DNA from: a virus
Lineage: Duplodnaviria > Caudoviricetes
IMG/VR virus record: IMGVR_UViG_3300014613_000013
Location: 1-41,022 of that record
Direction: 5' to 3' (one strand)
Length of the DNA: 41,022 nt
The notes beneath the pieces were generated by a model. That model was not told the DNA's origin, did no database searches, and was given only the letters and a program-made list of their open reading frames with translations. Every line of letters starts with the position of its first letter. The stretch's first letter is position 1. Position numbers and translations under genes: made by a program. Below, in pieces: positions 3,203 to 41,022 of the stretch.

Positions 3203-3205
3203 GTC

Positions 3206-3469: not shown

Positions 3470-3792
3470 GTAATGAATTAAAACCTAAGGAATTTATCGA
3501 AAAAAATACCGATCTTGTGAAAAAGATTAGAGAGGTTGCAGAGCAAATATTAATTGTCAATAGAGATCAAATATTATCTTTTAAAAATGAAAAACAATTT
3601 TTAGATTATATGGCGTCTGTAGCAGATGATATGATTCAATTAAATGCAATAGCTGAAACTATAGATGAATTAATTGCTAAGATAGCATTCAAATATTTAG
3701 ATAAATTAGTATTAGATAAATTTTTGGGTGATGATTGGTTTATTAAATTACAAACTTGGTTAAAAAATATAGAGATTAAGGTGGCAGGATAA
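3466..3792 (+). CDS. Hypothetical protein in lysis cassette
   Basis: 108-aa ORF translationally coupled on both sides. Confidence 0.7.
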   Translation: MSNELKPKEFIEKNTDLVKKIREVAEQILIVNRDQILSFKNEKQFLDYMASVADDMIQLNAIAETIDELIAKIAFKYLDKLVLDKFLGDDWFIKLQTWLKNIEIKVAG

Positions 3793-4229
3793 TGCTGAAA
3801 GAAAAAGATATATTTCATTTGATGATCGTTAGACAGATATATGCGACTGCGTCAACGATAGGCTACTTATACATTAATGGTAAGTTTACTTGTTATGTAT
3901 TAGAGGATGCAGTTAGATTGGAAGGTTTAAAAATAAAAGAAAAAACAGCTATTCCAGCAGGGTTTTATCGAGTTACAATAGAAGAATCAAAAAGGTTTGG
4001 TAGAGGTATGTTGACAATTAATGATGTGCCAAATTTTACAGGTATTCGTATTCACGGCGGTAATACTGCTGAAGATACGGCTGGATGCCCTCTTGTAGCA
4101 TATAATTGGGTTAAGCCTAATATTAAGGATACAGATAATATGATATATAAGAGTGCTGAACAAGATATAAAAGAATTAGTGCAAAATCAACTATTAGACA
4201 CATATATTTCAATAATTAATTTATTATAA
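3792..4229 (+). CDS. DUF5675-family protein, probable endolysin
   Basis: STIGYLYING..CYVLED..TAIPAGFY..DVPNFTGIRIHGGNTAEDTAGCPLV (HxGN..D..GC motif). Confidence 0.8.
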   Translation: MLKEKDIFHLMIVRQIYATASTIGYLYINGKFTCYVLEDAVRLEGLKIKEKTAIPAGFYRVTIEESKRFGRGMLTINDVPNFTGIRIHGGNTAEDTAGCPLVAYNWVKPNIKDTDNMIYKSAEQDIKELVQNQLLDTYISIINLL

Positions 4230-24880: not shown

Positions 24881-25603
24881 ATGAGTAATGAATTTGACTT
24901 AAATCAAGAAGGGATTGAAGATGGTGTAGAAATAAATTTAGAAGATGATGATACACTTGACACTCCCGCAAAAGAAGGGATTGATCCTGATAGAGTGGAA
25001 CAGATGTTAGCTGAAGCTAATCGTAAGCTTGAAAAAGCTAAAGAACTCGAATCAAAGTATCAATCTCAACCTGGGCCAGTTCCTGCAGCTCCTAGTAAAG
25101 AAGAACTAGATAAGATGCTTGAGATTGCAGCCAAGGAGATCGGATATTTCAAAGAGAATGATGAAGGGGATATTATACCAGATACCGAGACTGTTAGAAA
25201 AGTAGCAAATGTAGCTGGTCAAGTTAGTATGGCCCAACAGAAACCTTTGTTAGATCAGATTGCTAAACTTCAATCTAAACTAGAAGATTTAGAGTTAGCA
25301 GTGAATGATCCTGATTATGTTAAATTCAAACCAAATTTGAACGAAATCATAGAAAATGATAGCGTTTTAAAAGGTTTGAAAGGGAAAATATCCGATAGGG
25401 ATTTAGCAAATTTGGCAATGAGAATGCATAAAAGAGCTAATCCTCAAGAAAAGAAAGGTAGAGTTGTTACACCATATAAACCGGATGTAACAACAACAAT
25501 AACAAAAAGAAAGACAGCGAAATTAACAAAAGAAGACTTAGAGATTTGTAGAGATGGTGGCCTTGACCCTAAAATTTATGCTAAACAAAAATATGGAGTT
25601 TAA
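24881..25603 (+). CDS. Putative capsid scaffolding protein
   Basis: Start at ATG 24881 (GGAGG RBS); acidic N-terminus, coiled coils, C-terminal LTKEDLEIC..GLDPKIYAK. Confidence 0.7.
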   Translation: MSNEFDLNQEGIEDGVEINLEDDDTLDTPAKEGIDPDRVEQMLAEANRKLEKAKELESKYQSQPGPVPAAPSKEELDKMLEIAAKEIGYFKENDEGDIIPDTETVRKVANVAGQVSMAQQKPLLDQIAKLQSKLEDLELAVNDPDYVKFKPNLNEIIENDSVLKGLKGKISDRDLANLAMRMHKRANPQEKKGRVVTPYKPDVTTTITKRKTAKLTKEDLEICRDGGLDPKIYAKQKYGV

Positions 25604-25854: not shown

Positions 25855-26595
25855 ATGATTAATCTAGGAACGATTAAAGACCAGACATTTAAAATGCCTG
25901 TATATTCTACAACAGATATAGCAAAAAGAGCATTATTGATGCCTGGAGTTACAGCAGAAACAGATTTAGGTTGTGCAATATTAGCAACTAATTCAGCAGC
26001 AGCAGCAGATGCAATTGGTATGACAGATTATACTTTTGATGTATCTGAGGAAGGATCAACTACTGTAACCACAGGTGCTACATGGCCTACGGCTACAATA
26101 AAACCTTGTTTTGAAGCTACTCTATTAAGAGTTGAAATGGATCAAGCAGATACAGCAGCATTAGCAGGTGCTGAGTCTTCTAAGACCATTACTATTACTA
26201 GTTTGGAAGATAATATTGATACTTCTTGGTTGTATTGTGTTGGTGGTACAGGGATAGGTCAGTTAAGATATGTTGGTACTTCAGCAAGTGGTTCTTGTGA
26301 TATATCTGATGCAGGTTCACCTGAATGGGATACTGGGGATACAGTAATAAAGATACCTAGAATATTTCATCAAGTAGTAAAACTTAATTCAGCAGGTACA
26401 AAAATTGGTACAGATGCAGGTGCAGGTTCATGGACAGTTGTTGTAATGAGAACTTGGTTATCAAGAAACGCTAATCTTGAACAGTTATATCCACCAACTC
26501 ATAAAACATTAAGTGGGTTAAACGCAACTGCAATGTCAACAAAATTTTATGTAGATTTATGTGCAAGAAATACAGCAGCTTACACAACTGAATAA
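25855..26595 (+). CDS. Putative capsid decoration/minor head protein
   Basis: A/T/G-rich beta-type protein immediately upstream of the MCP. Confidence 0.55.
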   Translation: MINLGTIKDQTFKMPVYSTTDIAKRALLMPGVTAETDLGCAILATNSAAAADAIGMTDYTFDVSEEGSTTVTTGATWPTATIKPCFEATLLRVEMDQADTAALAGAESSKTITITSLEDNIDTSWLYCVGGTGIGQLRYVGTSASGSCDISDAGSPEWDTGDTVIKIPRIFHQVVKLNSAGTKIGTDAGAGSWTVVVMRTWLSRNANLEQLYPPTHKTLSGLNATAMSTKFYVDLCARNTAAYTTE

Positions 26596-26621: not shown

Positions 26622-27539
26622 ATGGGTAATATAATTACAGCAGCACAATTGCCTAGAATGTTAGAAGTCGGAATTAAAGTAAAATCATTAGAAGCTATGA
26701 ATGAAGAGTTTAAATATTCTGCAGCTAATAAACTTTTTACTGACCAGATGACTGATAGGGAAAGAATTGATGCTTTAACAACAATGACAATAGGTAAACA
26801 TGAAAAATTCACAGGATCATTAAGTTATGATAATGTAGAACAGGGACATTTTGGACAGTTCTATAACTATGAATATTGCACAGGGATGGCAATACAACAG
26901 AAGTTTATCAGAACTAATCAGTATAAACAAATGTGGCCTAGAATGTCTATGGAATTAGGTTTATCTTATGCTAGAACAGTAGAAGATGAGTCTATGAAAG
27001 TGTTTAGAAATGCTAATAATACAACAACTGTGACTTTACCTGATGGTCAAGCATTATCATCAACAGCACATCCAAGTGCATATGATTCTAGTGATACACA
27101 ATCTAATCAAACAACCTCAGCTTTATCAAGAACAGTATTAGAAACAATTGCTATTGCAGGTTCGAGATGGAAAACACCTAAGAATGAAGTCTTAGGGGCT
27201 AGATTTGATACAATTCTTATTCCACCTGATTTACAGTTTACAATGGAAAGAATCAACAATACTACTTTAGGTGGTACAAGTGGCGGTTCTAATTTAGATG
27301 TAAACGTACAGAAAGGGAGATGGAATATAATTGTTTCAGATTATCTAACTGATACAAATAATTATTTTGTAATAGATTCAGGCAGAATGAGAATGAATTT
27401 ATACAGAAACTGGGTTGCGAAACAAGAAATCAATGCAGTTGAAGATTTTGATACATTTGCAGCAAAATGGTCAAGTTACTGCTTCTTTGGATTAGAAGTA
27501 GACGATTGGACATGGATATATTGCGGAATAGTATCATAA
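26622..27539 (+). CDS. Major capsid protein (HK97 fold, Mu gpT-like)
   Basis: PDGQALSSTAHP, ILIPPDL, IVSDYLTDTNNYFVID, DFDT..AK; 305 aa; AGGAGG RBS. Confidence 0.82.
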   Translation: MGNIITAAQLPRMLEVGIKVKSLEAMNEEFKYSAANKLFTDQMTDRERIDALTTMTIGKHEKFTGSLSYDNVEQGHFGQFYNYEYCTGMAIQQKFIRTNQYKQMWPRMSMELGLSYARTVEDESMKVFRNANNTTTVTLPDGQALSSTAHPSAYDSSDTQSNQTTSALSRTVLETIAIAGSRWKTPKNEVLGARFDTILIPPDLQFTMERINNTTLGGTSGGSNLDVNVQKGRWNIIVSDYLTDTNNYFVIDSGRMRMNLYRNWVAKQEINAVEDFDTFAAKWSSYCFFGLEVDDWTWIYCGIVS

Positions 27540-27601: not shown

Positions 27602-28054
27602 ATGAGAGTAAAAAAACAAGATTTTCGTGAGGATTATTTTAGTACAAATTCTATTGAGAAGAATAAATTAGAACTTCGATCTTTAGAAAAACAACTTGAA
27701 GATATAGATATATATCGAAATAAAGATGCTAGTTTTAAATCAAACGTTAGAAAAGAAATCGATAGAAAAAAAGCTATAATCAACAAGTATAGTCCGCCAC
27801 AACTAACAGGTAAACAAAAAGATTTATTGTTGAATAGAAAAAAGTTTATTGAAGATAAACTAAAAGAAGTAACAGTTACAGATGATGAAGATTTTAGCAA
27901 TGATCATTATGTTAGAGAGATGGCTAGAAAAAAGATGGCAGTTAGAATGTCGAATCAATATGAAGAAATGGCTAAAGAATTAAGACGAATAAATCGAACT
28001 CTTGACCCCGAAAATGAAGTTTATAACTCATTGAATTATTTAAAACGGAGGTAA
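27602..28054 (+). CDS. Basic coiled-coil hypothetical protein
   Basis: 150 aa; GGGAGG RBS. Confidence 0.75.
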   Translation: MRVKKQDFREDYFSTNSIEKNKLELRSLEKQLEDIDIYRNKDASFKSNVRKEIDRKKAIINKYSPPQLTGKQKDLLLNRKKFIEDKLKEVTVTDDEDFSNDHYVREMARKKMAVRMSNQYEEMAKELRRINRTLDPENEVYNSLNYLKRR

Positions 28055-28059
28055 AGTAA

Positions 28060-29391
28060 ATGAACAAAATAAAATTGTTTTTAAAATTAGCATTGTTTCT
28101 TAGTGTCCCAGTTATATTATTTTTAAACATTGCTAGTGCTGATATATCATTTTCTCCAAGTGATTTATGGAGTACAGGCACAGAGAGTGCAGGTGCGGTT
28201 GTAGATTCAGATGGAGATTTTGAATGTACAGGCGATATTGCTATTGGAGATGATGTTGTTATTAATGATGATTTAACTGTAGGTGGAGATTTAGCGGTAA
28301 CAGGCTCGGTTACTTCTGCTACCGACACAGTTAGATATACAATGACAGCAGGTACTTTAACTGATGGCACGGCTAGCATGACGGGCGGTGCATTATCAGA
28401 TTTATCGAATGTGACTACGGACTCAACGACCGTAACGTATGCACTTACGGCAGGAACATTAACCGACGGAACAGCTAGTATGACCAGTGGTGCGTTATCA
28501 GGGTTGTCGAATGTAACAAGTGACTCAACGACCGTAACGTATGCACTTACGGCAGGAACATTAACAGATGGTACGGCGAGTATGGCTAGTGGTGCGTTAT
28601 CAGGGTTGTCTAACGTAACAACCGACAGCACAACTGTAACATACACTGCGACCGTAGGAACATTAACCGACGGAACAGCTAGTATGACTAGCGGTGCGTT
28701 ATCGGGATTGTCGAATGTAACAAGTGATTCAACAACGGTAACATATGCTGCAACAGTCGGGACATTGACCGATGGCACTTTAAGCATTACAGGTGGAAAC
28801 ATTAGTTCCGCAGGTAATATAGCAGGTGATGAAGTTATAGTAACTACTGTATCTGCTACAGGAGCTAACGGGTTATGGTTGGTAGATGATGGTAATAATG
28901 GGATATTTATTGCTGATGGTGGAAATATAGGTATAGGGCTTACTAATATGACAGCTAGATTAGAATTATACAATGGTAGTATAAAAACAAATCAAGAAGT
29001 GGTTTGTAGTTCAATCACAGCTTATAATTCTAATGGATTATGGTTAACTGATAATATTAACAATGGGATATTTATTGAAGGCGGGGGCAATGTAGGTATA
29101 AGTAACGCAGCTCCAGCAGGATTGTTTGAAGTTGGTGGCGGTACATTTACAGTATTATCAACAGGCTTGGTAGGTATTAACGACGAAACACCAACATCTA
29201 CATTAGATGTAGTTGGCGGTGGAATTAGACCTTATTCAAGAACAGAAGCAGAATTAAGATTATTAGCACCAGCACAAGCAGGTGAAGTCTATTTTGATTC
29301 AACAAATAATGCAATTGTAATATCAACAGGTACAAGTGCAGGACAGTTTGGGATAATATATGATGGCTCAACATTATGTACGGGTTGGTAA
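28060..29391 (+). CDS. Fibre/spike-like protein with signal peptide and 34-aa repeats
   Basis: MNKIKLFLKLALFLSVPVILFLNIASA|D; GN(V/I)GI repeats; GEVYFDST C-terminal motif. Confidence 0.7.
   Translation: MNKIKLFLKLALFLSVPVILFLNIASADISFSPSDLWSTGTESAGAVVDSDGDFECTGDIAIGDDVVINDDLTVGGDLAVTGSVTSATDTVRYTMTAGTLTDGTASMTGGALSDLSNVTTDSTTVTYALTAGTLTDGTASMTSGALSGLSNVTSDSTTVTYALTAGTLTDGTASMASGALSGLSNVTTDSTTVTYTATVGTLTDGTASMTSGALSGLSNVTSDSTTVTYAATVGTLTDGTLSITGGNISSAGNIAGDEVIVTTVSATGANGLWLVDDGNNGIFIADGGNIGIGLTNMTARLELYNGSIKTNQEVVCSSITAYNSNGLWLTDNINNGIFIEGGGNVGISNAAPAGLFEVGGGTFTVLSTGLVGINDETPTSTLDVVGGGIRPYSRTEAELRLLAPAQAGEVYFDSTNNAIVISTGTSAGQFGIIYDGSTLCTGW
28345..28800 (+). repeat. 102-bp (34-aa) tandem repeat, ~4.5 copies
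   Basis: TAGTLTDGTASMTSGALSGLSNVTSDSTTVTYAL units start at 28345, 28447, 28549, 28651, 28753. Confidence 0.92.
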
Positions 29392-29411
29392 TATTTTAGG
29401 GAGGATAAATT

Positions 29412-29810
29412 ATGTTAATGCGACCAACATCTCTTGAAATAAAAACATCAAGTGATAGTACGACATTAGCGGTAGCAAGCACAGCTACTGTATATACAAA
29501 ATCTTTCCCTTTACCATACGGGGGTAGCTTTGGTGTAAGTGCCAAGGCTGCTTCTAGTGGTACTATTAATGTTAAAGTAGAACTCGAAGAATCATATAGG
29601 TTACCTATAAATGAAGGTTCAGCAGATGATTATTGGGTTGTACCTACTGGAATTAGTGATGTATTTACTAGTGTAGCTAATTCTACACAATTACATAAAG
29701 CATTAAGTCCAATTGTTATGAGATACGGAAGATTTAAACTAACAGGTGTAGCATCAAACGATGCTTCAACTACACTTACAATGTTTTTACATTATCAAGA
29801 AGAGATATAG
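29412..29810 (+). CDS. Small beta-rich virion protein
   Basis: 132 aa; VELEES..W..RYGRFKLT pattern; no signal peptide. Confidence 0.6.
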   Translation: MLMRPTSLEIKTSSDSTTLAVASTATVYTKSFPLPYGGSFGVSAKAASSGTINVKVELEESYRLPINEGSADDYWVVPTGISDVFTSVANSTQLHKALSPIVMRYGRFKLTGVASNDASTTLTMFLHYQEEI

Positions 29811-29827
29811 TTTTAGGAGGGTCTCAA

Positions 29828-31243
29828 GTGAAAAAGATATTATTTTTATTAATATTTATATTTAGTACTACTTTTATGTATGCGTTTAATTATGGCACAG
29901 GTACATGGAATAAAGGCAATAATTTAAATATAGAAAAAAATTCTATCACAGGGGACTCTTCTACAGGTATAAATTTTGATCCTGATAATGATGGGATAAA
30001 CGAAATAATAATGAACGCTGATGGTACAATAAGTTCGTCAGGGACAACAATATCGTCAGGTACATTCAGTACACAATATTTGACTGTAACAAGTACATCT
30101 AGTTTCAGTGGATTAATAACAGGTACAGAAATAAGCGTTAGCACTGTTTCAGCTAAAGATTCAAATGGATTATACTTATTAGATGATGGTAATAATGGTA
30201 TATTTATTAAGGATGGTGGTAATGTTGGTATTGGCACAACTAATCCCACATCTGTTTTAAATGTTTTTAATAATACTGTAAATGATCCTTTTCCTCCTGA
30301 TGTAGTATCGTGTTTAAGACTAACACGAAGTGGGGTAGCTGCACAATCATATTCCAATGCTATTGATTTTAATGTTACACGCTATGAAAATCCAGGTGGT
30401 GCAAGTGATACGGCTTCCAGAACACAATTAATTTTAAAACTTGCACATGGTAAAACTAATATCCCCGATACTAATATAATGAGTTTATTGTCTAATGGAA
30501 ATGTGGGTATAGGAATAACAAATCCAAGTCAGAAGTTGGAGGTAGTAGGAGAGGTAAAAGCAAATGAGGTAATAACGAGTACGGTCTCAGCTAGCAGTTC
30601 ATCCGGATTATGGTTAGTAGAGGATGGAGGTAAAGGAATATTTATAGAAGATAGTACGGGATTTGTAGGTATAGGCCAAACTAATCCTTCAGTTGACTTA
30701 CAGATAGGTAATGGTATTACAACAGGAATCAAAACTATAAGTATTGTAAATCCTAATTCAGTAGATAGCCCAGCTGTTTATAATGCTACGCGTTTAGGTA
30801 GGTATATTGGGTTTATGGGTGCTTCATTGGATGGTCTTGGCTTTGGAGTTACTGGTTCCGGATTTAGTACGGATGCTCAATTAAATGCTGCTAGTGATTT
30901 ATTTATTGATAGAACTGGGCCTGGGAATATAGGTATAGGTACATATCAGGCAACACAGAAGTTAGATGTTGTAGGAATAGTAAAATCGTCTGGCGTATAT
31001 GCAAGAGGAGCAGATGGATTAAAATTATATGACGACGGCGGAAATGGTATATTTATACAGGATGGAGGCAATGTAGGTATTGGTACAATTACACCTGCCT
31101 CTAGCCTACAAGTCGTAGGTGGAGACATACAAATTAGTAGTTCTACAGTCGCAAAAGGTATAATTATGTATGATGTAGACTATCCAACGCAATCATATAG
31201 ATTGAATGTTAAAAGTGGCACTAGCGAATGGACTAAATTATAA
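29828..31243 (+). CDS. Tail-fibre-like protein with signal peptide
   Basis: MKKILFLLIFIFSTTFMYA|F; repeated GNVGIGTxxP..LxVxG units. Confidence 0.72.
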   Translation: MKKILFLLIFIFSTTFMYAFNYGTGTWNKGNNLNIEKNSITGDSSTGINFDPDNDGINEIIMNADGTISSSGTTISSGTFSTQYLTVTSTSSFSGLITGTEISVSTVSAKDSNGLYLLDDGNNGIFIKDGGNVGIGTTNPTSVLNVFNNTVNDPFPPDVVSCLRLTRSGVAAQSYSNAIDFNVTRYENPGGASDTASRTQLILKLAHGKTNIPDTNIMSLLSNGNVGIGITNPSQKLEVVGEVKANEVITSTVSASSSSGLWLVEDGGKGIFIEDSTGFVGIGQTNPSVDLQIGNGITTGIKTISIVNPNSVDSPAVYNATRLGRYIGFMGASLDGLGFGVTGSGFSTDAQLNAASDLFIDRTGPGNIGIGTYQATQKLDVVGIVKSSGVYARGADGLKLYDDGGNGIFIQDGGNVGIGTITPASSLQVVGGDIQISSSTVAKGIIMYDVDYPTQSYRLNVKSGTSEWTKL

Positions 31244-31300
31244 TAATAATAATAAAAAATATACAGGTTATATGAAAACTTTAGATTTAGGATATTTTTA

Positions 31301-32086
31301 ATGAAAAAATTATCTATAGTATTATTAGTATTTATGATTGGTTGTGCAACGAAAAATAGTGCATTAGTTCCTGATCCAGGTCGTGTAGAATTATACCAAA
31401 ACAGAGGTCTAACAGAAAATGCAATATCATTAATTGGAAAAGAATGCAGTCAAGATATAAAAAGAGTTGCATTAGATTTACGCCCACAACCTTATTTGTG
31501 GAGGTTGGAACATGTTACCGAACTGTCAATATATTCGTATGGAGATGGTAGTGATATATCCCCATATACAAGATTGAATGTAGGTTGGCAATCAGGTGGA
31601 GCAAATGCATGGCATATTAATGAAGAATCTGATTATGGATTATCTAAAGATATAGGAATAGGAATTAATGATCATAATGTTCCATATGATGTAGAATCAA
31701 TCTCAATTATTGGGACTGGAAGCAGATTTAAAAAATTTAGTGAAAATAATTTCGGGAGCGTGGTTGTTGGTTATAATAGTACAATTTTAGGTGGTAGAGA
31801 TATGTTAATATTATCTCCACCTGAGTTGACAAAAAAAGGCGTAGATAAAAGTCATGCTATGATGTTTGTTTCTAATTATTTTACTGATAAAAATAAACAA
31901 ATGAAATGGAGAATATATTCTGAAGTAGTTAATGAGGAAGGCGACTCAAAATTAAGTATAACAAAACAATTAGATAGTGGAGATGAAATACCAATATTTG
32001 AGGTTGGTTCAACTGCTGATAATATTAATTTTTTAATTATATATAAAGATGGGAAACCATCATATATATTCCCACAAGGAGAATGA
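31301..32086 (+). CDS. Putative lipoprotein within the tail module
   Basis: MKKLSIVLLVFMIG|C lipobox-like. Confidence 0.65.
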   Translation: MKKLSIVLLVFMIGCATKNSALVPDPGRVELYQNRGLTENAISLIGKECSQDIKRVALDLRPQPYLWRLEHVTELSIYSYGDGSDISPYTRLNVGWQSGGANAWHINEESDYGLSKDIGIGINDHNVPYDVESISIIGTGSRFKKFSENNFGSVVVGYNSTILGGRDMLILSPPELTKKGVDKSHAMMFVSNYFTDKNKQMKWRIYSEVVNEEGDSKLSITKQLDSGDEIPIFEVGSTADNINFLIIYKDGKPSYIFPQGE

Positions 32087-32165
32087 AATGTCCGATAAAT
32101 TACAACCAAAATTCAAGCGTGAGAAAGATTATGAAGATTTTCATGGTATGTTATAGGAGTAAAAA

Positions 32166-32912
32166 ATGAAAAGATTGTTATATTTATTAGGTTTTTTAAT
32201 TTTTATAATTATATCTAATTGTTTTGCAGTAGATTTTTATGAAGTTACTAGATCGACTTGTGGCAATTCTACTTTATCTGATATTAGAGATATGATTCGT
32301 AATAGGATAGATGATCCTTCGACTTCGTATGGCGATGTCAGATATTCAGATAGTTTTATAAATAATCTCATAAATATAGCACAACGAGATATAACTATCA
32401 ATACTAACTGTCTATGGTCTACATGTACAGGATATACAGTAGCAGACCAAGCAGGATATGAATTATTGGATGATATTTGGGCGATAGACAGGGTTGTTTG
32501 GAATGATGATTATGTTTTAACTCCTAAAGATGTATATGAAATGGATAGCGATAATGCTAATTGGTTTGATGTGTCGTCATCGTCTTCAACAGATTATTAT
32601 TGGTATAAAGGAGATGATGATATATATTTCTTTCCTACACCTGAATATTCGACAGGTACTATACAGATTTGGTATATAAAATTACCTGATGATATGGATA
32701 GTGATTCAGATGAAATTTTTGATAGTATGCCTAAACTTGAAGCATTTAAAGAAGCGTTAATGCATTATGTAACGTATAGAATATATTTTTTAGAGGGAGA
32801 TACTAGGTATCAGATAGCTTGGCAAGAATATAATGCTTATATAGATATGATTAAGAAGACTTGGGATATACAACCTAATTATAAACCTAACCTAAGATTA
32901 TGGAGGGATTAA
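32166..32912 (+). CDS. Head-tail adaptor (tail tubular A-like) with signal peptide
   Basis: TLSDIRDMIRNRIDD..YSDSFINNLINIAQRDI..TVADQAGYEL..IYFFPTP..IQIWY..EALMHY; N-terminus MKRLLYLLGFLIFIIISNCFA|V. Confidence 0.7.
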   Translation: MKRLLYLLGFLIFIIISNCFAVDFYEVTRSTCGNSTLSDIRDMIRNRIDDPSTSYGDVRYSDSFINNLINIAQRDITINTNCLWSTCTGYTVADQAGYELLDDIWAIDRVVWNDDYVLTPKDVYEMDSDNANWFDVSSSSSTDYYWYKGDDDIYFFPTPEYSTGTIQIWYIKLPDDMDSDSDEIFDSMPKLEAFKEALMHYVTYRIYFLEGDTRYQIAWQEYNAYIDMIKKTWDIQPNYKPNLRLWRD

Positions 32913-32913
32913 T

Positions 32914-35472
32914 ATGTTTAAAAAATCCCTTAAACAATTCTTATTTATAATACCAATAGTATTAATATTTTTTGGATTAAATTATAGCGATCAGTTAGAG
33001 TTTGCAGATTTTAGTGGTGGGTTGCGTAATGATATAACAGCAGATTTGTTGGCTGATAATGAATCGCCTGATTGTGAGAATGTTATAGTTAATGAACAAG
33101 GCAACTCACTAGAAAAGCGTACAGGGTTTACATTATTTAAAACTTTAACTTCTTCATCGACTTATGGGTGTCAAGGGTTTACTACATTTAGAGATCAATC
33201 AACAGGTAACGATTATTTTATAGTAGCTCATGGTACTATGGTAGCAAAAGTAGATTCTTCATCAACTACTGAATTTAAAACAGATCGAACAGATAACACA
33301 TATACAGATTTTACCTATGATGATAATAAGATTTATGGATGTAATGGGTATGATTATAATTGGAATTATGATGGCACGACAGTAATAAGTACAGCTACTT
33401 ATAGTGTAACTATAGGTACTACAACAACATATCCTTATGCTCCTAAAACATTTACTCATGCGTTTTATCAAGATAGATATTTTGTTGCTTGTTCGACTAC
33501 ATCCCCTAACAGAGTATGGCAATATTATTTCAACCAACCTACAAACTTATCAACAATAGATTATGATAATCCAGATTTAGCTGCAGATCAATATGACATA
33601 GGTGCAGCAGGTGAACGTATAGTTAAGTTATATGTATATAATAGTGGTTTAATGGTATTTAAGAGTAAATCTATCTATAAAATAATAGGTGATGGTACGC
33701 CTTTTCAAATAATAGAAATAACACATAATCTAGGATGTCAGAATCCTAATAGTATAATAGAAGATTCGGGAGTATTATATTTCTTAGGTAGTGATAATTA
33801 TTATTATATGTATGATGGAACTTCATTATATCGGTTGTCTGAAAAGATAGAAGGTAAAATGGAAGATATTAATAATACTATTTATTTAAGTACAGGTGGT
33901 ATATCAGTTGTTAATAATAGTGAGATATATGATACTTATACGCAATTTGATACAGGTACAAGCTCACATGTATATATAGACTCAGATGGTACGTTAACTA
34001 GACAATATTTATATGATGATTTTTCAGATGGTGATGCAGGTGATTGGACAGCTATATCAGGCACAATTTCGACTGCTACTTATACAAATTCTTTTACTTC
34101 AAAATCTCAATATTATATAGGATTAGACAATGGAGATAAATTTAGTAAATCTTATAATTTATCTTCTGAATCAGGATATTGGTATTTTGATATATATGCT
34201 CCTAATTATGCTACTTCTATAACGAGTTTTTATTTATACGATTCTAATTTTATATATGATGAATATTTAAAAATATCTATAGATAATAGTGATGTAAGTA
34301 TTCTACATTATTATTTTGACGGAACTTCGCGTCAAAATTTAGAAAGTGCAAGTATAGGGTCTTTATCAAATGCAAATATAAGATGTAAACTATATATTGG
34401 TGAAGATAATGGAGCTAATACAGAATATAAATTTTATATTAAAAAATATGGGGAATCTACATATACAGAAATATTAAATTATACGGATTATAGTTTAAGT
34501 ATTACTTCTAAGATTGTTTTAGAAGGGAATATTGTAACATCTTATATAACTAATATATACCATCCGTTACCGATAACAGATTCATCACATTATACATCTT
34601 CTATAATAGATTTAGGTAATTCTTATTCGTTTGGTTCTTTTAATGTTAATGAGAGCTTAAACGGAGAAACAATATCATATTTAATGCGAACAAATACAAG
34701 CTCTACCACATTACTTACAGATTCATGGATAACAATAAATAAAGATGAAGTGCCAAGTTTAACAAATAATAAATATGTACAATTCAAATCATCATTTACT
34801 ACTACAGATGTTACAGTAAGTCCTGAATTAGAGAAAGTAACTTTAAATTATTCTGATAATGTAAGTGTTCCTTCAGTTGTTACAGGTATAGGTAGTTCTA
34901 AATTCTTTAAAAATAGAATGTATAATAGTGTTAAAAATGTAAATGTTAGCACAGCTTCATATACAAATTACGCTTTGATATATGATTTACCGACAAATTC
35001 ATGGTGGCCTGTGAGTAATTTATATGCTTATGATTTTGCAGTATTAAATAATGAATTATATTTAGCTGATTCTCGTTATGGCGTAATTCTTAAACAGACA
35101 GAATCGTATAACGATTATGATGCAGCCGATAATGCTAACAATGCAATAGATTCTTATTATTATACCAAACAACATTATCTAGGTAGTCCTTACAATACAA
35201 AGAAACTTAATTATTTAGCGATGGCAATGAAGAAACAATCTACAGGATCGTTGTTAATAGATACTTTAATCAATGGAGTAACATCTAGTAATCAAATGAC
35301 TTATTCTATGACAGGTACAACTCCAGCTAAAGTATATATAAGTAATTATCCGTTTGGTGAAATAGGATATTATTATCAATGGAAATTTAGTAATAGCGAA
35401 GCTAGTACACCATTTGAATTGTTTAGTTATATGAGTGATTATAAGAATTTAGTAGCAAGGAAAATACGATGA
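32914..35472 (+). CDS. Nozzle / tail tubular B-like beta-propeller protein with N-terminal hydrophobic leader
   Basis: DFSGGL..NESPDCENV..SLEKRTG; LMVFKSKSIY; LGC..PNSI..LYFL; preceded by MFKKSLKQFLFIIPIVLIFFGLNYS. Confidence 0.72.
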   Translation: MFKKSLKQFLFIIPIVLIFFGLNYSDQLEFADFSGGLRNDITADLLADNESPDCENVIVNEQGNSLEKRTGFTLFKTLTSSSTYGCQGFTTFRDQSTGNDYFIVAHGTMVAKVDSSSTTEFKTDRTDNTYTDFTYDDNKIYGCNGYDYNWNYDGTTVISTATYSVTIGTTTTYPYAPKTFTHAFYQDRYFVACSTTSPNRVWQYYFNQPTNLSTIDYDNPDLAADQYDIGAAGERIVKLYVYNSGLMVFKSKSIYKIIGDGTPFQIIEITHNLGCQNPNSIIEDSGVLYFLGSDNYYYMYDGTSLYRLSEKIEGKMEDINNTIYLSTGGISVVNNSEIYDTYTQFDTGTSSHVYIDSDGTLTRQYLYDDFSDGDAGDWTAISGTISTATYTNSFTSKSQYYIGLDNGDKFSKSYNLSSESGYWYFDIYAPNYATSITSFYLYDSNFIYDEYLKISIDNSDVSILHYYFDGTSRQNLESASIGSLSNANIRCKLYIGEDNGANTEYKFYIKKYGESTYTEILNYTDYSLSITSKIVLEGNIVTSYITNIYHPLPITDSSHYTSSIIDLGNSYSFGSFNVNESLNGETISYLMRTNTSSTTLLTDSWITINKDEVPSLTNNKYVQFKSSFTTTDVTVSPELEKVTLNYSDNVSVPSVVTGIGSSKFFKNRMYNSVKNVNVSTASYTNYALIYDLPTNSWWPVSNLYAYDFAVLNNELYLADSRYGVILKQTESYNDYDAADNANNAIDSYYYTKQHYLGSPYNTKKLNYLAMAMKKQSTGSLLIDTLINGVTSSNQMTYSMTGTTPAKVYISNYPFGEIGYYYQWKFSNSEASTPFELFSYMSDYKNLVARKIR

Positions 35473-36206
35473 AAAAGATATTATTAATATTAAGTATCAT
35501 ATTGGTTGGGTCTAGTTTATATGGGATTAATCGTAGTAAAGGTAGGTTATATTCGTATAAAGACACTAAATATCTTAATACTGAACTAGATAATATATAT
35601 TCTGCGTTAAACAGTAAATATATTAATGGTAATTATCAAATAAGTGGAGAGTTATTGGTTAATGGTAACTTAGGTATAGGGACAGCAACGCCAACAGATA
35701 AATTACATGTAGATGGAGATGTTACAATAGATGGCTCAATAAACTCAATATATTCTAATGTATTATCAGAAACAACAAATTATATTAATATAACTGGGCT
35801 AGATGGTGATAGTGATATTATTTATGAATTATATTTTTATGTTGTACCATTTGGAGCAATAGCAAATATTGAACTGACAATAAATTATGATTCAGGTGCT
35901 AATTATTATTTAGTTTATATTATAGGGAATGGGACTACTCCAACAACATCATCAGGTAGTGGTAATTATCTTGTTTTAGCTGGTGTTAATGCTGGGACAA
36001 TATCAATAGGCAAGTTTACAATATTTGCCAAATCAGGTAATTATAGGTCAGTAAGTGGATATTATCAAAGTTCAAGTGGTCTTGATACAGGAATACGAAC
36101 TGGTATGTGGAACAATAGTGCTGATAATATCACTAGTATACAATTGACAGCAAGTTCTAATAGTTTTAATACTGGTAGTTATTTTAAATTATATAAAAAG
36201 CGTTAG
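35469..36206 (+). CDS. Tail-associated protein with signal peptide
   Basis: MKKILLILSIILVGSSLYG|I; GNLGIGT; C-terminal ITSIQL..FNTGSYFKLY domain. Confidence 0.68.
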   Translation: MKKILLILSIILVGSSLYGINRSKGRLYSYKDTKYLNTELDNIYSALNSKYINGNYQISGELLVNGNLGIGTATPTDKLHVDGDVTIDGSINSIYSNVLSETTNYINITGLDGDSDIIYELYFYVVPFGAIANIELTINYDSGANYYLVYIIGNGTTPTTSSGSGNYLVLAGVNAGTISIGKFTIFAKSGNYRSVSGYYQSSSGLDTGIRTGMWNNSADNITSIQLTASSNSFNTGSYFKLYKKR

Positions 36207-36218
36207 GAGGAAACAAAA

Positions 36219-37553
36219 ATGGTACTACCAAGAATATCAATATCGCCTATGATGACAAAAGCAAAAGGAAAAGCTGAATCAGAAAAAAAAGAAAAAGAAA
36301 CCACAAGTCCACTAGATTGGTCTCCAGGTGGAGGGCGAACAAAAACACTAAGAACATTAATAGCAGATGATGTGGCGAACGGTACTAGGATTATGTTAGG
36401 CGAAGTCCCAGATTTGTCTAAAGAAGATGTTATTAAAGGTGTTAAAGAATATTTTGCATTACAAAATCTTGATACTGCTTCGGTATCGAGATTAACATTT
36501 GCACAAAATAGTAACGAGATAGATGTACAAGCTGTATATCAATTAGGGAAATTAAAAGAAATAGCTCCTGATGTTGATGTTACAGAACTTAATACTGTAG
36601 CTGAAAATGCATCAGGTGCAGATGATAAAGCTAAATTTTTGAGGTCAAGACAAGATGAATTTAAAACTAAACAGGCTGCATATAATGTAGAAAAAGAAAC
36701 TGAACAAAAAGAAGCAGGACAAGCTGAAGAAGCAAAAACTAAATATGGTGATGTACAAAAAATATATCAAGATTTAGGTTTAGAAGATATAATGACAGAC
36801 GATGATGTGCAACAGTTTGCAACACAAATTGCACAAGGTAACATAACAAATATAGGTTTAAGAAACTTTCTACAACAACAACCTGAGTATTTAGCAAAAC
36901 AATTTGAAATAGAACGAGCAGCAGCTAAAGAAGAAGCAGCAGTAGCACGTACAGAGTTAGGCCAACAGTTAGATACAAGTAGTTCTGAATTTTTAAAGAA
37001 AAAAGCATTGCCACAAATTGAGCGAGTATATTCTAGGTTAGGTGGTACAAATCGGGCATCAACAGCAGCAGCGTTAAGTGCAGCTACCGCAGATGTAGCA
37101 AAAGAAAGAGAGAATGTATTAGCGTCAGCAGGATTGCAAGATGCAGCTATGATGCAAGGGTATAGGCGTGAAGATTATTTAAACCAACAAAATGCAAATT
37201 ATCAAATGGCATTACAGAATTGGTATAACATGACAGGCTTACAAAACATGCAAAAACAACAAACATATCAAGCAAACCAAAATAAATTAGCACAGATATA
37301 TGGTACACAAGAACGACAATCTTCACAGAACTGGCAAGAATATATGGCTAATTTACAGCGTGGTTGGGCTAGTAAAGATCAAGCAGCAGCTCAAAAACAG
37401 CAAATGTGGGGAGCTTTAGCAGGTACTATAGGTATGGTAGGTATGGGTGCAGGAATAGGTGCATTATTTCCAGGTATAACTGCGGGCCAAGGAGCATTAT
37501 CAGGGTTTGCAGGTATGCCATACACACAATCAAATCCATATACAAGGGCATAG
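36219..37553 (+). CDS. Putative ejection/pilot protein
   Basis: Q/A-rich coiled coil with C-terminal Gly-rich hydrophobic segment (WGALAGTIGMVGMGAGIGALF). Confidence 0.6.
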   Translation: MVLPRISISPMMTKAKGKAESEKKEKETTSPLDWSPGGGRTKTLRTLIADDVANGTRIMLGEVPDLSKEDVIKGVKEYFALQNLDTASVSRLTFAQNSNEIDVQAVYQLGKLKEIAPDVDVTELNTVAENASGADDKAKFLRSRQDEFKTKQAAYNVEKETEQKEAGQAEEAKTKYGDVQKIYQDLGLEDIMTDDDVQQFATQIAQGNITNIGLRNFLQQQPEYLAKQFEIERAAAKEEAAVARTELGQQLDTSSSEFLKKKALPQIERVYSRLGGTNRASTAAALSAATADVAKERENVLASAGLQDAAMMQGYRREDYLNQQNANYQMALQNWYNMTGLQNMQKQQTYQANQNKLAQIYGTQERQSSQNWQEYMANLQRGWASKDQAAAQKQQMWGALAGTIGMVGMGAGIGALFPGITAGQGALSGFAGMPYTQSNPYTRA

Positions 37554-37562
37554 GAGGATAAC

Positions 37563-38606
37563 ATGGCAGTAGATTGGGTAACACCATTGTTAAGCGGTAT
37601 GCAAAAAGGTGCAGCAGGTGCTTATGGTGCTATGTTGTATGCTGAAGATGAGAAAGAAAAAAAAGCACAAAAAGAAATAGAGAATAAACGTAAAGAAAGA
37701 GAGTTTGCTGGTGATATGTTAGGAACATTAGACAAATATGGATTTACTCTTGATCCTTTACAGAAATATAAACTAGCAACTAACGCTTGGACAACATATG
37801 CAGGCACAGAGGTAACGCCTGATTATAACCAAATAGCGAATATAGGAACACAAGGATTAAGTAAAGAAACAGCGATGGCTCTTTTTAAAATGGCGGTTCC
37901 CAATGCTTCTAATAAAGAATTATTAAGTTTTGGCAATACTGTAGAGGGATTGCCATTAGATCAACAAAAACCATTTTTTCAACAATTAGACAAGAAAATG
38001 AATAAAACTATGGAAGGATTAAGCATAGAAAAACAGAACCAATATAACAAAGATGTATTTGCTAAAGCTAAAGAAATCGCACATAATTTAAATTGGGGAT
38101 TAGTTAAAGGTGATCCTGACTATGATCCTGCAATATATAAATATAACGAATATAAACCTAACCAACAAGAAATAGATGATTCTATGAAAGCAGCTAAAAA
38201 ATATATCCAAGGTGATATGGAAGGATACCAACAAGAAATAGAAAAACTAAGAAATATAGATAAAGAACCCGTAAGAACACAAATTAAGTTATGGATTCAA
38301 GATGGATATTCTGATAAAAAAATACAGAATAAATTGAAAAAACAAAAAATATCTCATTATACAGCGTATTATACAGAAATTCCAAAATTACGTGAAGGTG
38401 TTATGGATATTGAAGAAAAAGCAAAAAATAATTTTACTAAAGAAATAGAAATGTATAAAAAAACTGGATTGACTGATAGGGCAATAAAAGAAAAACTTAA
38501 AGAATTTAGGGGACAATTAGAGGCAACATTAAAAATGCCTGGTTTAACTCCTGAACAAATTAAACAAAACGAAACACTATTAGAACTAACAAAAAAATGG
38601 TTATAA
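37563..38606 (+). CDS. Putative internal virion/ejection protein
   Basis: Gly-rich amphipathic N-terminus then coiled coil; lies between the pilot-like and giant genes. Confidence 0.55.
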   Translation: MAVDWVTPLLSGMQKGAAGAYGAMLYAEDEKEKKAQKEIENKRKEREFAGDMLGTLDKYGFTLDPLQKYKLATNAWTTYAGTEVTPDYNQIANIGTQGLSKETAMALFKMAVPNASNKELLSFGNTVEGLPLDQQKPFFQQLDKKMNKTMEGLSIEKQNQYNKDVFAKAKEIAHNLNWGLVKGDPDYDPAIYKYNEYKPNQQEIDDSMKAAKKYIQGDMEGYQQEIEKLRNIDKEPVRTQIKLWIQDGYSDKKIQNKLKKQKISHYTAYYTEIPKLREGVMDIEEKAKNNFTKEIEMYKKTGLTDRAIKEKLKEFRGQLEATLKMPGLTPEQIKQNETLLELTKKWL

Positions 38607-38615
38607 GAGGATTAA

Positions 38616-41022
38616 ATGGGATTATTTGATTTAATAGAACAACCAGATGAAGAACAAAAAGAACCTATTGAACAGCCTATTGAACCAGCTAAAGAGAGTT
38701 CTTTATTTAATTTAATCGAACAACCAACAACAAATATTCAACAGGGTCTTGAACAGCCTAAAATGTCGTTAGCTGATAGGTTTATGACTTCGTTTAAAGC
38801 TGCAACTCCAATAGGATTGGCAAGTAAAGCTAAAGAAATGTTACCTGAACCTATAGAACGAGGTGTTGAGAATGTACAACGAGGAGCTATGGCATTAGCT
38901 CCAAGGTTAGCAAAAACTCCAGCAGGATTAGCAAAAAGTTTCGCTGAACAAGAGAAACCTTTAGCTGAAAGACTTACTGAAACATTTCTACCTATGGGTC
39001 AGATACAACACAAACTTGCTCCCGTTATTGAAGGTTTAACTGATAAAATCTTACCACAAAAAGAAAAACCCAAAAGTATGTATGAACGATCGCAATTCGA
39101 TAAGAAAATAATTGAGATAAGCGATAAAATAATAAAGAAGACTCAGGAATGGTCTAATAATAAAAACTTACAACAGATAGGTGATAAGCCTATGGATAAG
39201 TTTATGTATGGGTTAGGTAGTGGTTTAGCTTCGTTTGGAGCAGCAGCAGGATCAACACTAGCAACAGGCGGTAATCCTGCAATAGCAGCATTATTATTTG
39301 GTTCGATGCAATACTCTGATACTTATTTAAAATCAAGAGAAAAAGATAAATCAGTAGAAAAATCATTAGACGCAGCACTATTAGCAGGTGCAGCTGAAGG
39401 CGGATTGGAGTTTGTTGGGTTAGATTTATTTTTTAATAAGATAGGTAAACAAGCAGTCAAACAAGGTGGTAAAAAAATAACTAAATGGTTTAGTAATGTT
39501 GTTTTAAGAAGTTTAACTGAAGGTAGTCAAGAAGCTTCCCAGGAAATAGCTGGAGCAGCTATAGGTAAAGCATTTGATATTGAAGATAGAAAAACTCAAC
39601 AAATATTAAACGATGTAGGATTTTCAGCGTTAATAGGTGGTGTTATAGGTGGTGGATCATCTATGGTATTAGATACTGCTAAAAATATTGGGTTAGAACA
39701 GAAATTATTAGAAGCTGGTGTCCCACCAAAAGATGTAGAAAATGTTATTGTTACTACACAACAAAAGATAAATGAAGAATTCAAAGATATAAAAGTAAGT
39801 AAAGAAGAAATTCAAGAAAGAAAAAAAGAGATTGAAAAACAAAAGAAATTCATGACCGATCAAGTACAATTATTGAAAGAAGCGGATGTTGCTAAAGAAG
39901 ACTTACAAGGGTTTATTTTAGATAGAGATTTTGGTAGTCCTAAACTTAGGGAATTAATAACGAAATACGAGACAGGTGAAGTTGAAACTCGAGATGATAT
40001 ATTAGATTCTATTAAAGATAATTATAGGCAGTATAAGAAAAAAATAAGCAAGATTAAACCTGAACAGATAGAACAGCCTAAAACTGAAAAGCCTAAAACA
40101 CTGGCTGAAAGATTAATAGCTGAACAGGAAGCTAAGAAAGAAGAGCCTTTAATAAAAGAAGCTAAGAAGTATAAGACGGCTGAGGAGTTTGTGAAGGCAC
40201 AGACAAATGCAGTAAGGCAAGGTGCAATAGATAAAAATGGAGCATATTTTTCAACAGAAGGAACTTCAACTTATTTTGATTTAGAAAATACAAGAGCATT
40301 AAAATATAATATATCAGATGCGAAATTAGTACAAAGCGGAACGCCAGAAATGAGAGCAGTATTAGAAAATGCCAAAAAACTAAAAAACACACCAGAAGAA
40401 CTACAAAGAATAAATGATGCATTAAAGGCAGACAATTCAGCCGACAATTTTGTTGACTATATGTTATTTGACGAAGTTCCTTCAATCAAAAAATCGGCAG
40501 AACAATTGAAATATGATGGAGTAAAAATATGGGAGAACGATGACATAGCAGATCCAAGTTCTGTGTTTATATGGAATACCAATATAATCAAAACCAAATC
40601 CCAACTAACCGACATTTGGAACAAAGCCAATCAAAAGGCAAAAGAAGTTAAAGTTCCAATAGATTTAAAGCAAAAAGTAAAAGAAACTGCTGAATCTTTA
40701 AGAGATAAAGAAATCCAAGAATATGAGTTTAGCAAACAAGATGATATATTAAATAAGATAAAAGAAAAAGGTGGATTAGATATAAAATTCTTTAAAGGGA
40801 AAGAAGAAGTTAAGGATATTCCCCAATATGTTAGAATGCAGACATTTAAAAAAGGCGGGTTAGATTTAGATGATATGGCAGCTAGACTAAATATTGGAGA
40901 ACAAGAGTTATTACAACAGCTTAAAGATTATGAACCTGTATCAAAACCTAAAGGAACAGAGACTTTTTATGAAGATGCTAAAGATATAATTAAACAAGAG
41001 ATAGGTGAAGATGAATATAATA
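38616..41022 (+). CDS. N-terminal part of the giant ejection/polyvalent protein (absent from ORF track because it runs off the end)
   Basis: GAGG RBS, MGLFDLIEQP...; Gly/Ala hydrophobic helices and EGSQEASQE; joins 3..2900 in frame. Confidence 0.82.
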   Translation, partial: MGLFDLIEQPDEEQKEPIEQPIEPAKESSLFNLIEQPTTNIQQGLEQPKMSLADRFMTSFKAATPIGLASKAKEMLPEPIERGVENVQRGAMALAPRLAKTPAGLAKSFAEQEKPLAERLTETFLPMGQIQHKLAPVIEGLTDKILPQKEKPKSMYERSQFDKKIIEISDKIIKKTQEWSNNKNLQQIGDKPMDKFMYGLGSGLASFGAAAGSTLATGGNPAIAALLFGSMQYSDTYLKSREKDKSVEKSLDAALLAGAAEGGLEFVGLDLFFNKIGKQAVKQGGKKITKWFSNVVLRSLTEGSQEASQEIAGAAIGKAFDIEDRKTQQILNDVGFSALIGGVIGGGSSMVLDTAKNIGLEQKLLEAGVPPKDVENVIVTTQQKINEEFKDIKVSKEEIQERKKEIEKQKKFMTDQVQLLKEADVAKEDLQGFILDRDFGSPKLRELITKYETGEVETRDDILDSIKDNYRQYKKKISKIKPEQIEQPKTEKPKTLAERLIAEQEAKKEEPLIKEAKKYKTAEEFVKAQTNAVRQGAIDKNGAYFSTEGTSTYFDLENTRALKYNISDAKLVQSGTPEMRAVLENAKKLKNTPEELQRINDALKADNSADNFVDYMLFDEVPSIKKSAEQLKYDGVKIWENDDIADPSSVFIWNTNIIKTKSQLTDIWNKANQKAKEVKVPIDLKQKVKETAESLRDKEIQEYEFSKQDDILNKIKEKGGLDIKFFKGKEEVKDIPQYVRMQTFKKGGLDLDDMAARLNIGEQELLQQLKDYEPVSKPKGTETFYEDAKDIIKQEIGEDEYN
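40900..41022. repeat. Terminal direct repeat, copy 2
   Basis: Identical to 1-123. Confidence 0.97.

What the first reader, a model, noticed from the sequence alone, without database searches (positions are those of the whole stretch)
28060..36206. Tail module whose proteins carry export signals: a possible Sec-exported, envelope-assembled phage tail
Seen: six of seven consecutive tail-module ORFs (28060, 29828, 31301 with lipobox, 32166, 32914, 35469) begin with basic residues, a hydrophobic core and a small-residue cleavage site. Each signal precedes the point where structural homology appears to start (TLSDIR in the adaptor, DFSGGL in the nozzle). Portal, scaffold, MCP and the three ejection proteins have none. 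Established: T7 gp11/gp12 and P22 gp4/gp10 are cytoplasmic and lack signal peptides. Inference: the neck/tail may be built in the periplasm or tethered at the inner membrane, then joined to heads at the membrane or at lysis. That would be a morphogenesis route I do not know from model tailed phages. Best candidate for an undescribed system here.
Basis: partly seen in the sequence, partly recalled or inferred. Interest (0 to 1): 0.92.

Follow-up and report, generated by a model that had tools for sequence, protein, structure and literature searches.

The report
Phage tail built outside the cytoplasm
This uncultured short-tailed phage and a large group of relatives carry secretion-signal-type leaders on their tail proteins, including the ring that docks on the head, but on no head protein, so the tail is likely made in the host's periplasm and would join the head only when the cell bursts.

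Summary
Observation confirmed. In this complete 41-kb podophage, six of seven tail-module ORFs begin with a Sec-type leader behind a ribosome-binding site. The 248-aa and 852-aa proteins have the podovirus adaptor and nozzle folds. The leaders are a lineage trait: 85 of 99 adaptor homologues pass a strict heuristic. In 91 of 92 aligned adaptors the signal-peptidase (-3,-1) rule holds, at the point where leaderless adaptors start. In 16 related loci, 76 of 88 tail-block ORFs and 0 of 100 head ORFs carry one. No leaderless adaptor was found in this genome or in 6 near-complete relatives. A relative's GroEL points to Elusimicrobiota (diderm) hosts. Best reading (inferred): tail parts are exported, cleaved and matured in the periplasm, and join portal-sealed heads once the holin breaches the inner membrane. 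Membrane tethering is unsupported, since the lipoprotein is not conserved. SignalP could not be run and no experiment exists. Not found in ten literature searches. This scan noted the same phenomenon earlier on other genomes.

The parts
22013..24079 (+). Portal, no leader, no transmembrane segment (cytoplasmic)
   Evidence: PF23899 SU10_portal E 1.5e-22
24881..25603 (+). Probable scaffold, no leader (true start taken as Met34 of the listed ORF)
   Evidence: position, acidic N-terminus; role inferred
25855..26595 (+). Conserved 246-aa head-module protein, no leader
   Evidence: orthologues in related loci, none with a leader
26622..27539 (+). Major capsid protein, no leader
   Evidence: PF25209 E 2.2e-8; 0 of 25 orthologues with a leader
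27602..28054 (+). Conserved basic helical 150-aa protein between the capsid gene and the exported block; no leader, no family; candidate cytoplasmic head-sealing factor (untested)
   Evidence: alignment of 22; no usable PHROG, PDB or Atlas hit
28060..29391 (+). Fibre-like protein, 27-aa leader ending ASA, 34-aa tandem repeats and fibre-shaft repeats
29412..29810 (+). The one leaderless ORF of the block (132 aa), probable virion accessory
   Evidence: phrog_28213 E 1e-21; homologue in L056
29828..31243 (+). Tail-fibre-like protein, 19-aa leader
   Evidence: phrog_9942 tail fiber E 1.1e-13
31301..32086 (+). Predicted lipoprotein (lipobox MIG|C); not conserved in relatives; role unknown
   Evidence: only lipobox ORF in the genome; no homologue in fetched loci
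32166..32912 (+). Head-to-tail adaptor, SU10 gp11/T7 gp11 type, with 21-aa leader (32166-32228)
   Evidence: PF24175 E 3.8e-24, residues 36-229; model pLDDT 88.9; Foldseek to A4, GP4, SU10, KHP30, Pa223 adaptors at E 3e-9 to 6e-8
32914..35472 (+). Nozzle (tail hub) with about 25-aa leader (32914-32988) and a large beta-rich insertion
   Evidence: model pLDDT 84.7; Foldseek ranks 1-21 as listed are all podophage tail complexes, best E 3.5e-19, TM only 0.2-0.37
35469..36206 (+). Short fibre-like protein, 19-aa leader, N-terminal N-x-E/N-F/L-x-N-I motif shared with leader-bearing fibre genes of relatives
36219..37553 (+). Ejection protein 1 (by position and composition), no leader
   Evidence: role inferred
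37563..38606 (+). Ejection protein 2 (by position), no leader
   Evidence: role inferred
38616..41022 (+). Large ejection protein, no leader; runs across the 123-bp terminal repeat to position 2900 (1727 aa)
   Evidence: phrog_28077 on its C-terminal half
2900..4229 (+). Lysis cassette: two holin-like membrane ORFs, a 108-aa ORF and a leaderless DUF5675 endolysin candidate; no spanin-type lipoprotein found
   Evidence: the endolysin role of DUF5675 is inferred from position and from amidase, M15 or NlpC genes at the same place in relatives

Best explanation
This is a short-tailed phage whose adaptor, nozzle and fibre-like proteins carry cleavable-type secretion leaders, so they are likely exported to the host periplasm and would join the DNA-filled head only after lysis proteins open the inner membrane. 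Shown: an SU10/T7-type adaptor and nozzle, leaders on the tail block and not on the head block across the lineage, a cleavage site at the start of the domain, no second leaderless adaptor gene found, and a holin-endolysin-type cassette. Inferred steps: (1) Sec export and signal peptidase I cleavage give a mature adaptor that starts like leaderless adaptors. (2) Tail parts fold and partly pre-assemble in the periplasm, possibly to be O-glycosylated by the host at S-[S/T]-x-[S/T] sites. (3) Heads are filled in the cytoplasm and hold their DNA by a closed portal valve, as proposed for T7, perhaps helped by the conserved post-capsid protein. (4) The holin lesion mixes the two compartments inside the outer membrane, the adaptor replaces the terminase on the portal, and the finished virions are released. 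Hosts are likely diderm Elusimicrobiota.
For: Folds. Adaptor homologues: 85 of 99 pass the strict heuristic, and by inspection the other 14 are near-threshold or long leaders or truncated proteins. -1 small in 91 of 92, -3 small or aliphatic in 91 of 92, -2 small in only 7 of 92, modal leader length 20. Start codon plus RBS near the cleavage site in only 1 of 32 adaptor genes, so no general cytoplasmic isoform. Nozzle homologues: 108 of 126 proteins of 650 aa or more have a hydrophobic leader (79 at the strict threshold) against 7 of 24 shorter ones; a class of 13 proteins of 470-540 aa starts directly at the FxGG motif. A tree on the mature nozzle domain separates 36 leader-bearing from 16 leaderless rows by one branch (SH-aLRT 96, quick tree). 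Mature leader-bearing nozzles have an extracytoplasmic make-up: S+T 0.188 against 0.142 and K+R+E 0.106 against 0.138 in the homologous 280 residues. Tandem adaptor paralogues each keep their own leader (L012, L016, L036, L038, L039). Six records at least 90% complete hold only leader-bearing adaptors. Loci found through the capsid gene, blind to leaders, show the same block (L047, L049, L055). Host: 18 of the 19 organism-named rows among the 120 best matches of a relative's GroEL are Elusimicrobiota, a phylum described as having an outer membrane (PMC3133647, passages). A closed portal can hold DNA before the tail is added (PMC6702177, passages). Filled heads and free tails can join after release (cf-PICI, bioRxiv 10.1101/2025.02.11.637232, passages).
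Against: No SignalP run, no proteomics, no cultured member (searches found only weak partial matches among 50,697 phage records). The T7 paper describes retention by the portal as brief, and in cf-PICI the heads carry their own adaptor and connector genes; here heads would wait with no adaptor at all. P22 heads lacking gp4 lose DNA (recalled, not from a call). The glycosylation step is weak: S-[ST]-x-[ST] is 1.53-fold enriched in leader-bearing nozzles (92 of 108 proteins above expectation; T-first control 1.10-fold) and 31 against 15.1 expected in the window's six proteins, but 13 leaderless nozzles show the same ratio (14 against 9.1, z 1.6), and no host proteins could be tested. Disulfide formation is not a general reason: 84 of 97 mature adaptors have 0-1 cysteines, and the even-odd cysteine split in nozzles (64:34) is like that of leaderless ones (8:5). 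The adaptor tree does not resolve one origin (2 changes, long branches). The host evidence comes from one relative; the window's own capsid protein is at most about 30% identical to the others. Two relatives sit in Patescibacteria bins.
Confidence: 0.6

Rival explanations
1. Export as above, but heads and tails meet only in the medium after the cell has burst, as for cf-PICI particles; tails could then be exchanged between co-infecting relatives.
For: Post-release joining is documented for cf-PICI (passages). Fibre genes are highly mosaic among relatives while head genes are conserved.
Against: Dilution after lysis would make a 12+6+fibre assembly on a bare portal inefficient (inference). No spanin-type lipoprotein was found in the window, which would leave time for mixing inside the outer membrane.
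Confidence: 0.14
2. Tails assemble at the envelope and filled heads are passed through the inner membrane onto them without general lysis (extrusion or budding), with the lipoprotein or small outer-membrane proteins as an exit site.
For: A lipoprotein lies directly before the adaptor here. Small leader-bearing proteins ending in an aromatic beta-strand lie beside the lysis genes of four relatives.
Against: The lipoprotein has no homologue in the fetched loci. The portal has no membrane segment. Holin-like and endolysin-like genes are present. No dedicated export ATPase or secretin was seen in the Pfam and PHROG scans of 48 window ORFs.
Confidence: 0.12
3. The leaders are uncleaved membrane anchors that keep the tail proteins on the cytoplasmic face of the inner membrane, as an assembly platform for ordinary cytoplasmic head-tail joining.
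For: It would avoid the topological problem; the first adaptor helix holds several arginines.
Against: The (-3,-1) pattern in 91 of 92, short h-regions, basic n-regions, and net charge of the first 18 mature residues at most +2 in 91 of 92. The mature parts have an extracytoplasmic composition.
Confidence: 0.08
4. The leader-bearing genes no longer build the virion tail but make a periplasmic or secreted product (decoy, exclusion factor), and the particle uses another neck.
For: An unassigned conserved cytoplasmic helical protein follows the capsid gene and could in principle be a neck protein.
Against: No other adaptor or nozzle gene was found in complete genomes. Gene order capsid-fibres-adaptor-nozzle-ejection proteins is that of a podovirus, and both folds are intact.
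Confidence: 0.04

Closest known systems
Kuravirus SU10 tail (portal gp6, adaptor gp11, nozzle gp17; PMC9509320, passages read; PDB 7z47) and related podophage tails (GP4 8jov, cyanophage A4 9k09, Pa223 9nwi, T7 gp11/gp12, P22 gp10)
   Same: Portal family (PF23899), adaptor family (PF24175), nozzle fold, gene order and probable ejection proteins.
   Different: Here adaptor, nozzle and fibres carry leaders. 'Signal peptide' does not occur in the SU10 paper; a solved-structure relative aligns from residue 5, leaving no room for a leader (26fb_T). The nozzle is about 300 aa longer than the leaderless 470-540-aa class. No tail-needle gene was identified.
T7 portal valve model (PMC6702177, passages read)
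   Same: Provides a way for a filled head to hold DNA without an adaptor.
   Different: Proposed for a brief interval in one compartment; here it would have to last until lysis.
cf-PICI tail-less capsids that join free phage tails after release (bioRxiv 10.1101/2025.02.11.637232, passages read)
   Same: Head and tail made apart and joined late.
   Different: A satellite with long-tail helpers; its heads carry their own adaptor and connector genes; no export leaders were mentioned in the passages seen.
Filamentous phage assembly at the envelope (recalled; PMC4823517 seen as a search listing only)
   Same: Virion proteins routed through the Sec system.
   Different: ssDNA, membrane-embedded coat proteins, non-lytic extrusion; no portal, terminase or tail.
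Sister phages L052-L054 (uncultured, found here)
   Same: Same head-gene order; capsid protein 32-34% identical to the lineage query; L052 and L053 have leader-bearing fibre-like genes with the same N-terminal motif.
   Different: Their adaptor (PF24175) and 518-aa nozzle are leaderless: fibres exported, neck cytoplasmic, a possible intermediate state.

Membership tests
SU10/T7-type podovirus tail | Dodecameric adaptor with helix bundle and fibre-dock domain | tested here: met
   PF24175 above cut-off; Foldseek TM 0.53-0.63 to seven adaptor chains. The oligomeric state is not tested.
SU10/T7-type podovirus tail | Nozzle with beta-propeller next to the adaptor gene | tested here: met
   Top Foldseek hits are all podophage tail complexes, E down to 3.5e-19, with low TM (0.2-0.37) because of the insertion; weak profile match to Pam1 7eeq
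SU10/T7-type podovirus tail | Portal, terminase, capsid protein and ejection proteins in one late operon | tested here: met
   ejection roles inferred from position only
SU10/T7-type podovirus tail | Leaderless tail proteins assembled on the portal in the cytoplasm | tested here: not met
   Leaders on adaptor and nozzle, no internal start; the site of assembly itself is not testable here
Sec/signal peptidase I substrates | Basic n-region, hydrophobic h-region, small residues at -3 and -1 | tested here: met
   91 of 92 adaptors; five window ORFs (the nozzle has Asn at -3)
Sec/signal peptidase I substrates | Trained-predictor score (SignalP 6) and demonstrated cleavage or export | not testable with these tools
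Bacterial lipoproteins (ORF 31301) | Lipobox cysteine after an h-region | tested here: met
   MIG|C at residue 15; acylation untested
Filamentous-type extrusion systems | Assembly ATPase, secretin and membrane coat proteins; no lysis genes | tested here: not met
   None in the scans of 48 ORFs; lysis-type cassette present
Elusimicrobiota phages | Host link by prophage, CRISPR spacer or host-derived gene | tested here: inconclusive
   GroEL of relative G403 is nearest to Elusimicrobiota (18 of 19 organism-named rows, 61-65% identity); no prophage found; spacers not searched
O-glycosylated secreted proteins | A sequon shared with host glycoproteins and an attached glycan | tested here: inconclusive
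   Ser-first motif excess, not exclusive to leader-bearing proteins; no host proteome available

The most novel reading that the evidence does not exclude
A whole lineage of tailed phages of Elusimicrobiota builds its virion across the inner membrane. The entire neck and tail, starting with the portal-binding ring, is secreted, processed and host-glycosylated in the periplasm, while a dedicated cytoplasmic factor keeps filled heads sealed. Lysis is then an obligatory assembly step, and no infectious particle ever exists in the intact cell.
Probability: 0.35. Interest if true: 0.95.

Novelty: categorically new. Interest (0 to 1): 0.85.

Why it matters
Tailed-phage morphogenesis is taken to finish in the cytoplasm, with lysis only releasing completed virions. 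Here the first tail ring itself appears to be made on the other side of the inner membrane, in a deep clade (over 100 nozzle clusters at 50% identity among the top 150 hits). If true, the holin becomes an assembly switch, heads must hold DNA without a neck for a long time, and virions can pick up periplasmic modifications. The first step is testable now by fusing the leaders to a reporter in E. coli. The likely host phylum has cultured members (Elusimicrobium minutum is cited as cultivated in PMC3133647), which gives a route to isolating such a phage.

Tried and rejected
Searches with the single adaptor found no viral locus and only 4 proteins; profiles were needed. PDB sequence searches with single adaptor, nozzle and fibre gave nothing useful. 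No cultured phage carries the family. The adaptor scan of genome contigs found nothing. The capsid scan found two phage-sized contigs in Patescibacteria bins; a search of 401 genomes of that phylum gave only the source genome and two weak partial matches, so I treat these as probably mis-binned and reject a Patescibacteria host as unsupported. Rejected: a cytoplasmic isoform by internal start (1 of 32); the lipoprotein as a conserved tether; disulfide bonding as the general reason for export. The post-capsid protein as a P22 gp4/HK97 gp6-like connector found no support (best Atlas TM 0.42); a complex prediction of it with the portal was not available, so that question is open. My start-picking heuristic mis-called five adaptor or nozzle starts (L004, L017, L019, L022, L031); one search shows an in-frame leader in each, although L004 falls below the threshold and L022 has no standard start codon directly before its leader. 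One control ORF was read in a wrong frame; one search repeats the window controls correctly. Rows left out: 2 fragments of the 99 adaptors from alignment A2; 5 further rows from the 92-row count (4 with an N-terminal extension, including the window's own, and 1 gap); every third leader-bearing nozzle (36 of 108) was used for the tree; 16 non-redundant loci holding both post-capsid gene and nozzle were used for the block count. Literature: ten searches of the open PMC and bioRxiv library; aimed at exported tail proteins and listed no such report (listings and abstract starts only). Subscription papers and supplements were not seen.


Full report
The window is a complete virus record of 41,022 bases with a 123-base terminal repeat. 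The late operon reads terminase, portal (PF23899), scaffold, a zinc-finger ORF, a 246-aa protein, capsid protein (PF25209), a 150-aa ORF, seven tail-module ORFs, three probable ejection proteins and a lysis-type cassette. No integrase was hit in the scans of 48 ORFs.

Observation. Six of the seven tail-module ORFs begin with a basic n-region, a hydrophobic core and a small -1 residue, each behind a ribosome-binding site. In-frame starts inside the leaders have no usable site, and the next starts of adaptor and nozzle cut into the conserved domain. Only three other ORFs of the genome look similar: a holin-like ORF and two early-region ORFs. The scoring is my own hydropathy and charge heuristic; SignalP was not available.

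Identity. The 248-aa protein is an SU10-type adaptor (PF24175, E 3.8e-24). Its model (pLDDT 88.9) matches adaptors of A4, GP4, SU10, KHP30 and Pa223. The 852-aa model (pLDDT 84.7) ranks podophage tail complexes first, including Pa223, A4, SU10, P22 gp10 and T7 gp12; TM-scores are low (0.2-0.37) because of a large insertion. ORF 29828 hits a tail-fibre PHROG and shares repeats with 28060. ORF 35469 shares an N-terminal motif with leader-bearing fibre-like genes of relatives.

Conservation. A profile search returned 99 adaptors, of which 85 pass the strict heuristic; the rest are near-threshold, long-leader or truncated by inspection. That query included the leader, so two searches less tied to it were added. 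In the nozzle search, 108 of 126 long homologues have a leader against 7 of 24 short ones, and a 470-540-aa class starts directly at the conserved motif. A capsid-protein search, blind to leaders, found new loci with the block (L047, L049, L055), a sister group with leaderless neck (L052-L054) and one locus without tail leaders (L056). Across 16 non-redundant loci, 76 of 88 ORFs between the post-capsid gene and the nozzle carry a leader and 0 of 100 head ORFs do; the 12 exceptions include start mis-calls, borderline leaders and the window's 132-aa ORF. Among portal (18), 246-aa protein, capsid (25) and post-capsid orthologues none has a leader. Duplicated adaptors keep separate leaders. A quick tree of mature nozzle domains needs one change between the two states; the adaptor tree needs two and is unresolved.

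Cleaved, not anchored. At the position before the first adaptor helix, 91 of 92 homologues have a small residue at -1 and 91 of 92 a small or aliphatic one at -3, but only 7 at -2; the modal length is 20. The product would begin L-T-L-S-D-I-R, like the natural start of leaderless adaptors in L024 and L025. Only 1 of 32 adaptor genes has a start codon with a ribosome-binding site near that point. Six relatives at least 90% complete hold no leaderless adaptor detectable by the profile. The mature parts are richer in Ser and Thr and poorer in Lys, Arg and Glu than leaderless nozzles and than the window's head proteins (0.216 against 0.117; 0.094 against 0.226), as expected of extracytoplasmic proteins.

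Host. One relative (G403) carries GroES and GroEL; 18 of the 19 organism-named rows among the 120 best GroEL matches are Elusimicrobiota, the other is 'bacterium'. That phylum is described as having an outer membrane (PMC3133647, passages). This is one gene in one relative, so the host of the window itself is inferred. Two contigs in Patescibacteria bins were not backed by a search of 401 genomes of that phylum.

Why export. Disulfides do not explain it. A Ser-first motif, S-[S/T]-x-[S/T], is in excess in leader-bearing nozzles (889 against 583), adaptors (208 against 80, partly one conserved site), other exported ORFs (141 against 67) and the window's six proteins (31 against 15), while the Thr-first control is near expectation. 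Leaderless nozzles show a similar ratio on small numbers (14 against 9), so glycosylation is a lead only. O-antigen-ligase-type genes (PF04932) occur in G404 and in sister L053. I reached the motif, before seeing an earlier scan note with the same idea.

Mechanism. The adaptor binds the portal clip and stem, the surface used by the terminase (PMC9509320 and PMC6702177, passages), so an exported adaptor cannot reach it while the inner membrane is intact (inference). The window and its relatives encode holin-like and endolysin-like genes, and the window has no spanin-type lipoprotein. The simplest model is that holin action mixes filled heads with periplasmic tail parts inside the outer membrane. 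A closed portal can hold DNA for a time, and late head-tail joining has a precedent in cf-PICI. The main difficulty is how long heads can wait without a neck. The conserved cytoplasmic post-capsid protein is a candidate helper, but it has no family or structural match and its binding to the portal is untested. I give export about 0.9 and the lysis-coupled joining model 0.6.

Novelty. The parts belong to a known tail type, but the defining trait of cytoplasmic, leaderless assembly is not met. Ten literature searches of the open library listed no report of exported adaptors or nozzles (aimed at this; listings and abstract starts only; subscription papers and supplements not seen). Earlier notes of this scan describe the same phenomenon on other genomes; they are not independent evidence. 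What this study adds from its own calls is the family-wide cleavage-site count, the internal-start control, the leaderless sister group and the GroEL host lead. Verdict: a real feature and probably a new morphogenesis route; interest 0.85.

Noticed in passing
window 8955-9560 (-): 201-aa early-region ORF with a leader and aromatic beta-strand pattern to its C-terminus, like a small outer-membrane barrel; no Pfam, PHROG or NCBIfam hit and no homologue in fetched loci.
   Followed up: partly
window 9721-10695 (-): 324-aa ORF with a leader, no family hit.
   Followed up: partly
window 17057-17629 and 21372-21662: Two GroES-like genes (one with a doubled Cpn10 domain) without GroEL; relative G403 has both GroES and GroEL.
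   Followed up: partly
window 28348-28748: 3.9 copies of a 102-bp in-frame repeat, 79% identical, in the first fibre-like gene.
   Followed up: no
window 7911-8951 (-), 7116-7838 (-), 5003-5677 (-): C5 and N6/N4 DNA methyltransferases and a GDPD-family phosphodiesterase.
   Followed up: no
window 17901-18152: Short 83-aa fragment of an RNase T/DnaQ exonuclease domain, possibly a broken gene.
   Followed up: no
L036:2023-3776; L012, L016, L038, L039: Two or three tandem adaptor paralogues, each with its own leader, suggesting a multi-ring tail barrel.
   Followed up: partly
L052-L054: Sister phages with leaderless adaptor and nozzle; L052 and L053 have leader-bearing fibre-like genes, and L053 an O-antigen-ligase-type gene after the capsid gene.
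   Followed up: partly
L008:17859-18341, L021:13139-13531, L060:2711-3196, L064:1830-2342: Small leader-bearing proteins ending in an aromatic beta-strand beside holin and endolysin genes; candidate outer-membrane lysis or exclusion proteins with no usable family hit.
   Followed up: partly
L066:7900-8538: Adenylate/guanylate cyclase domain in the lysis region of a relative.
   Followed up: no
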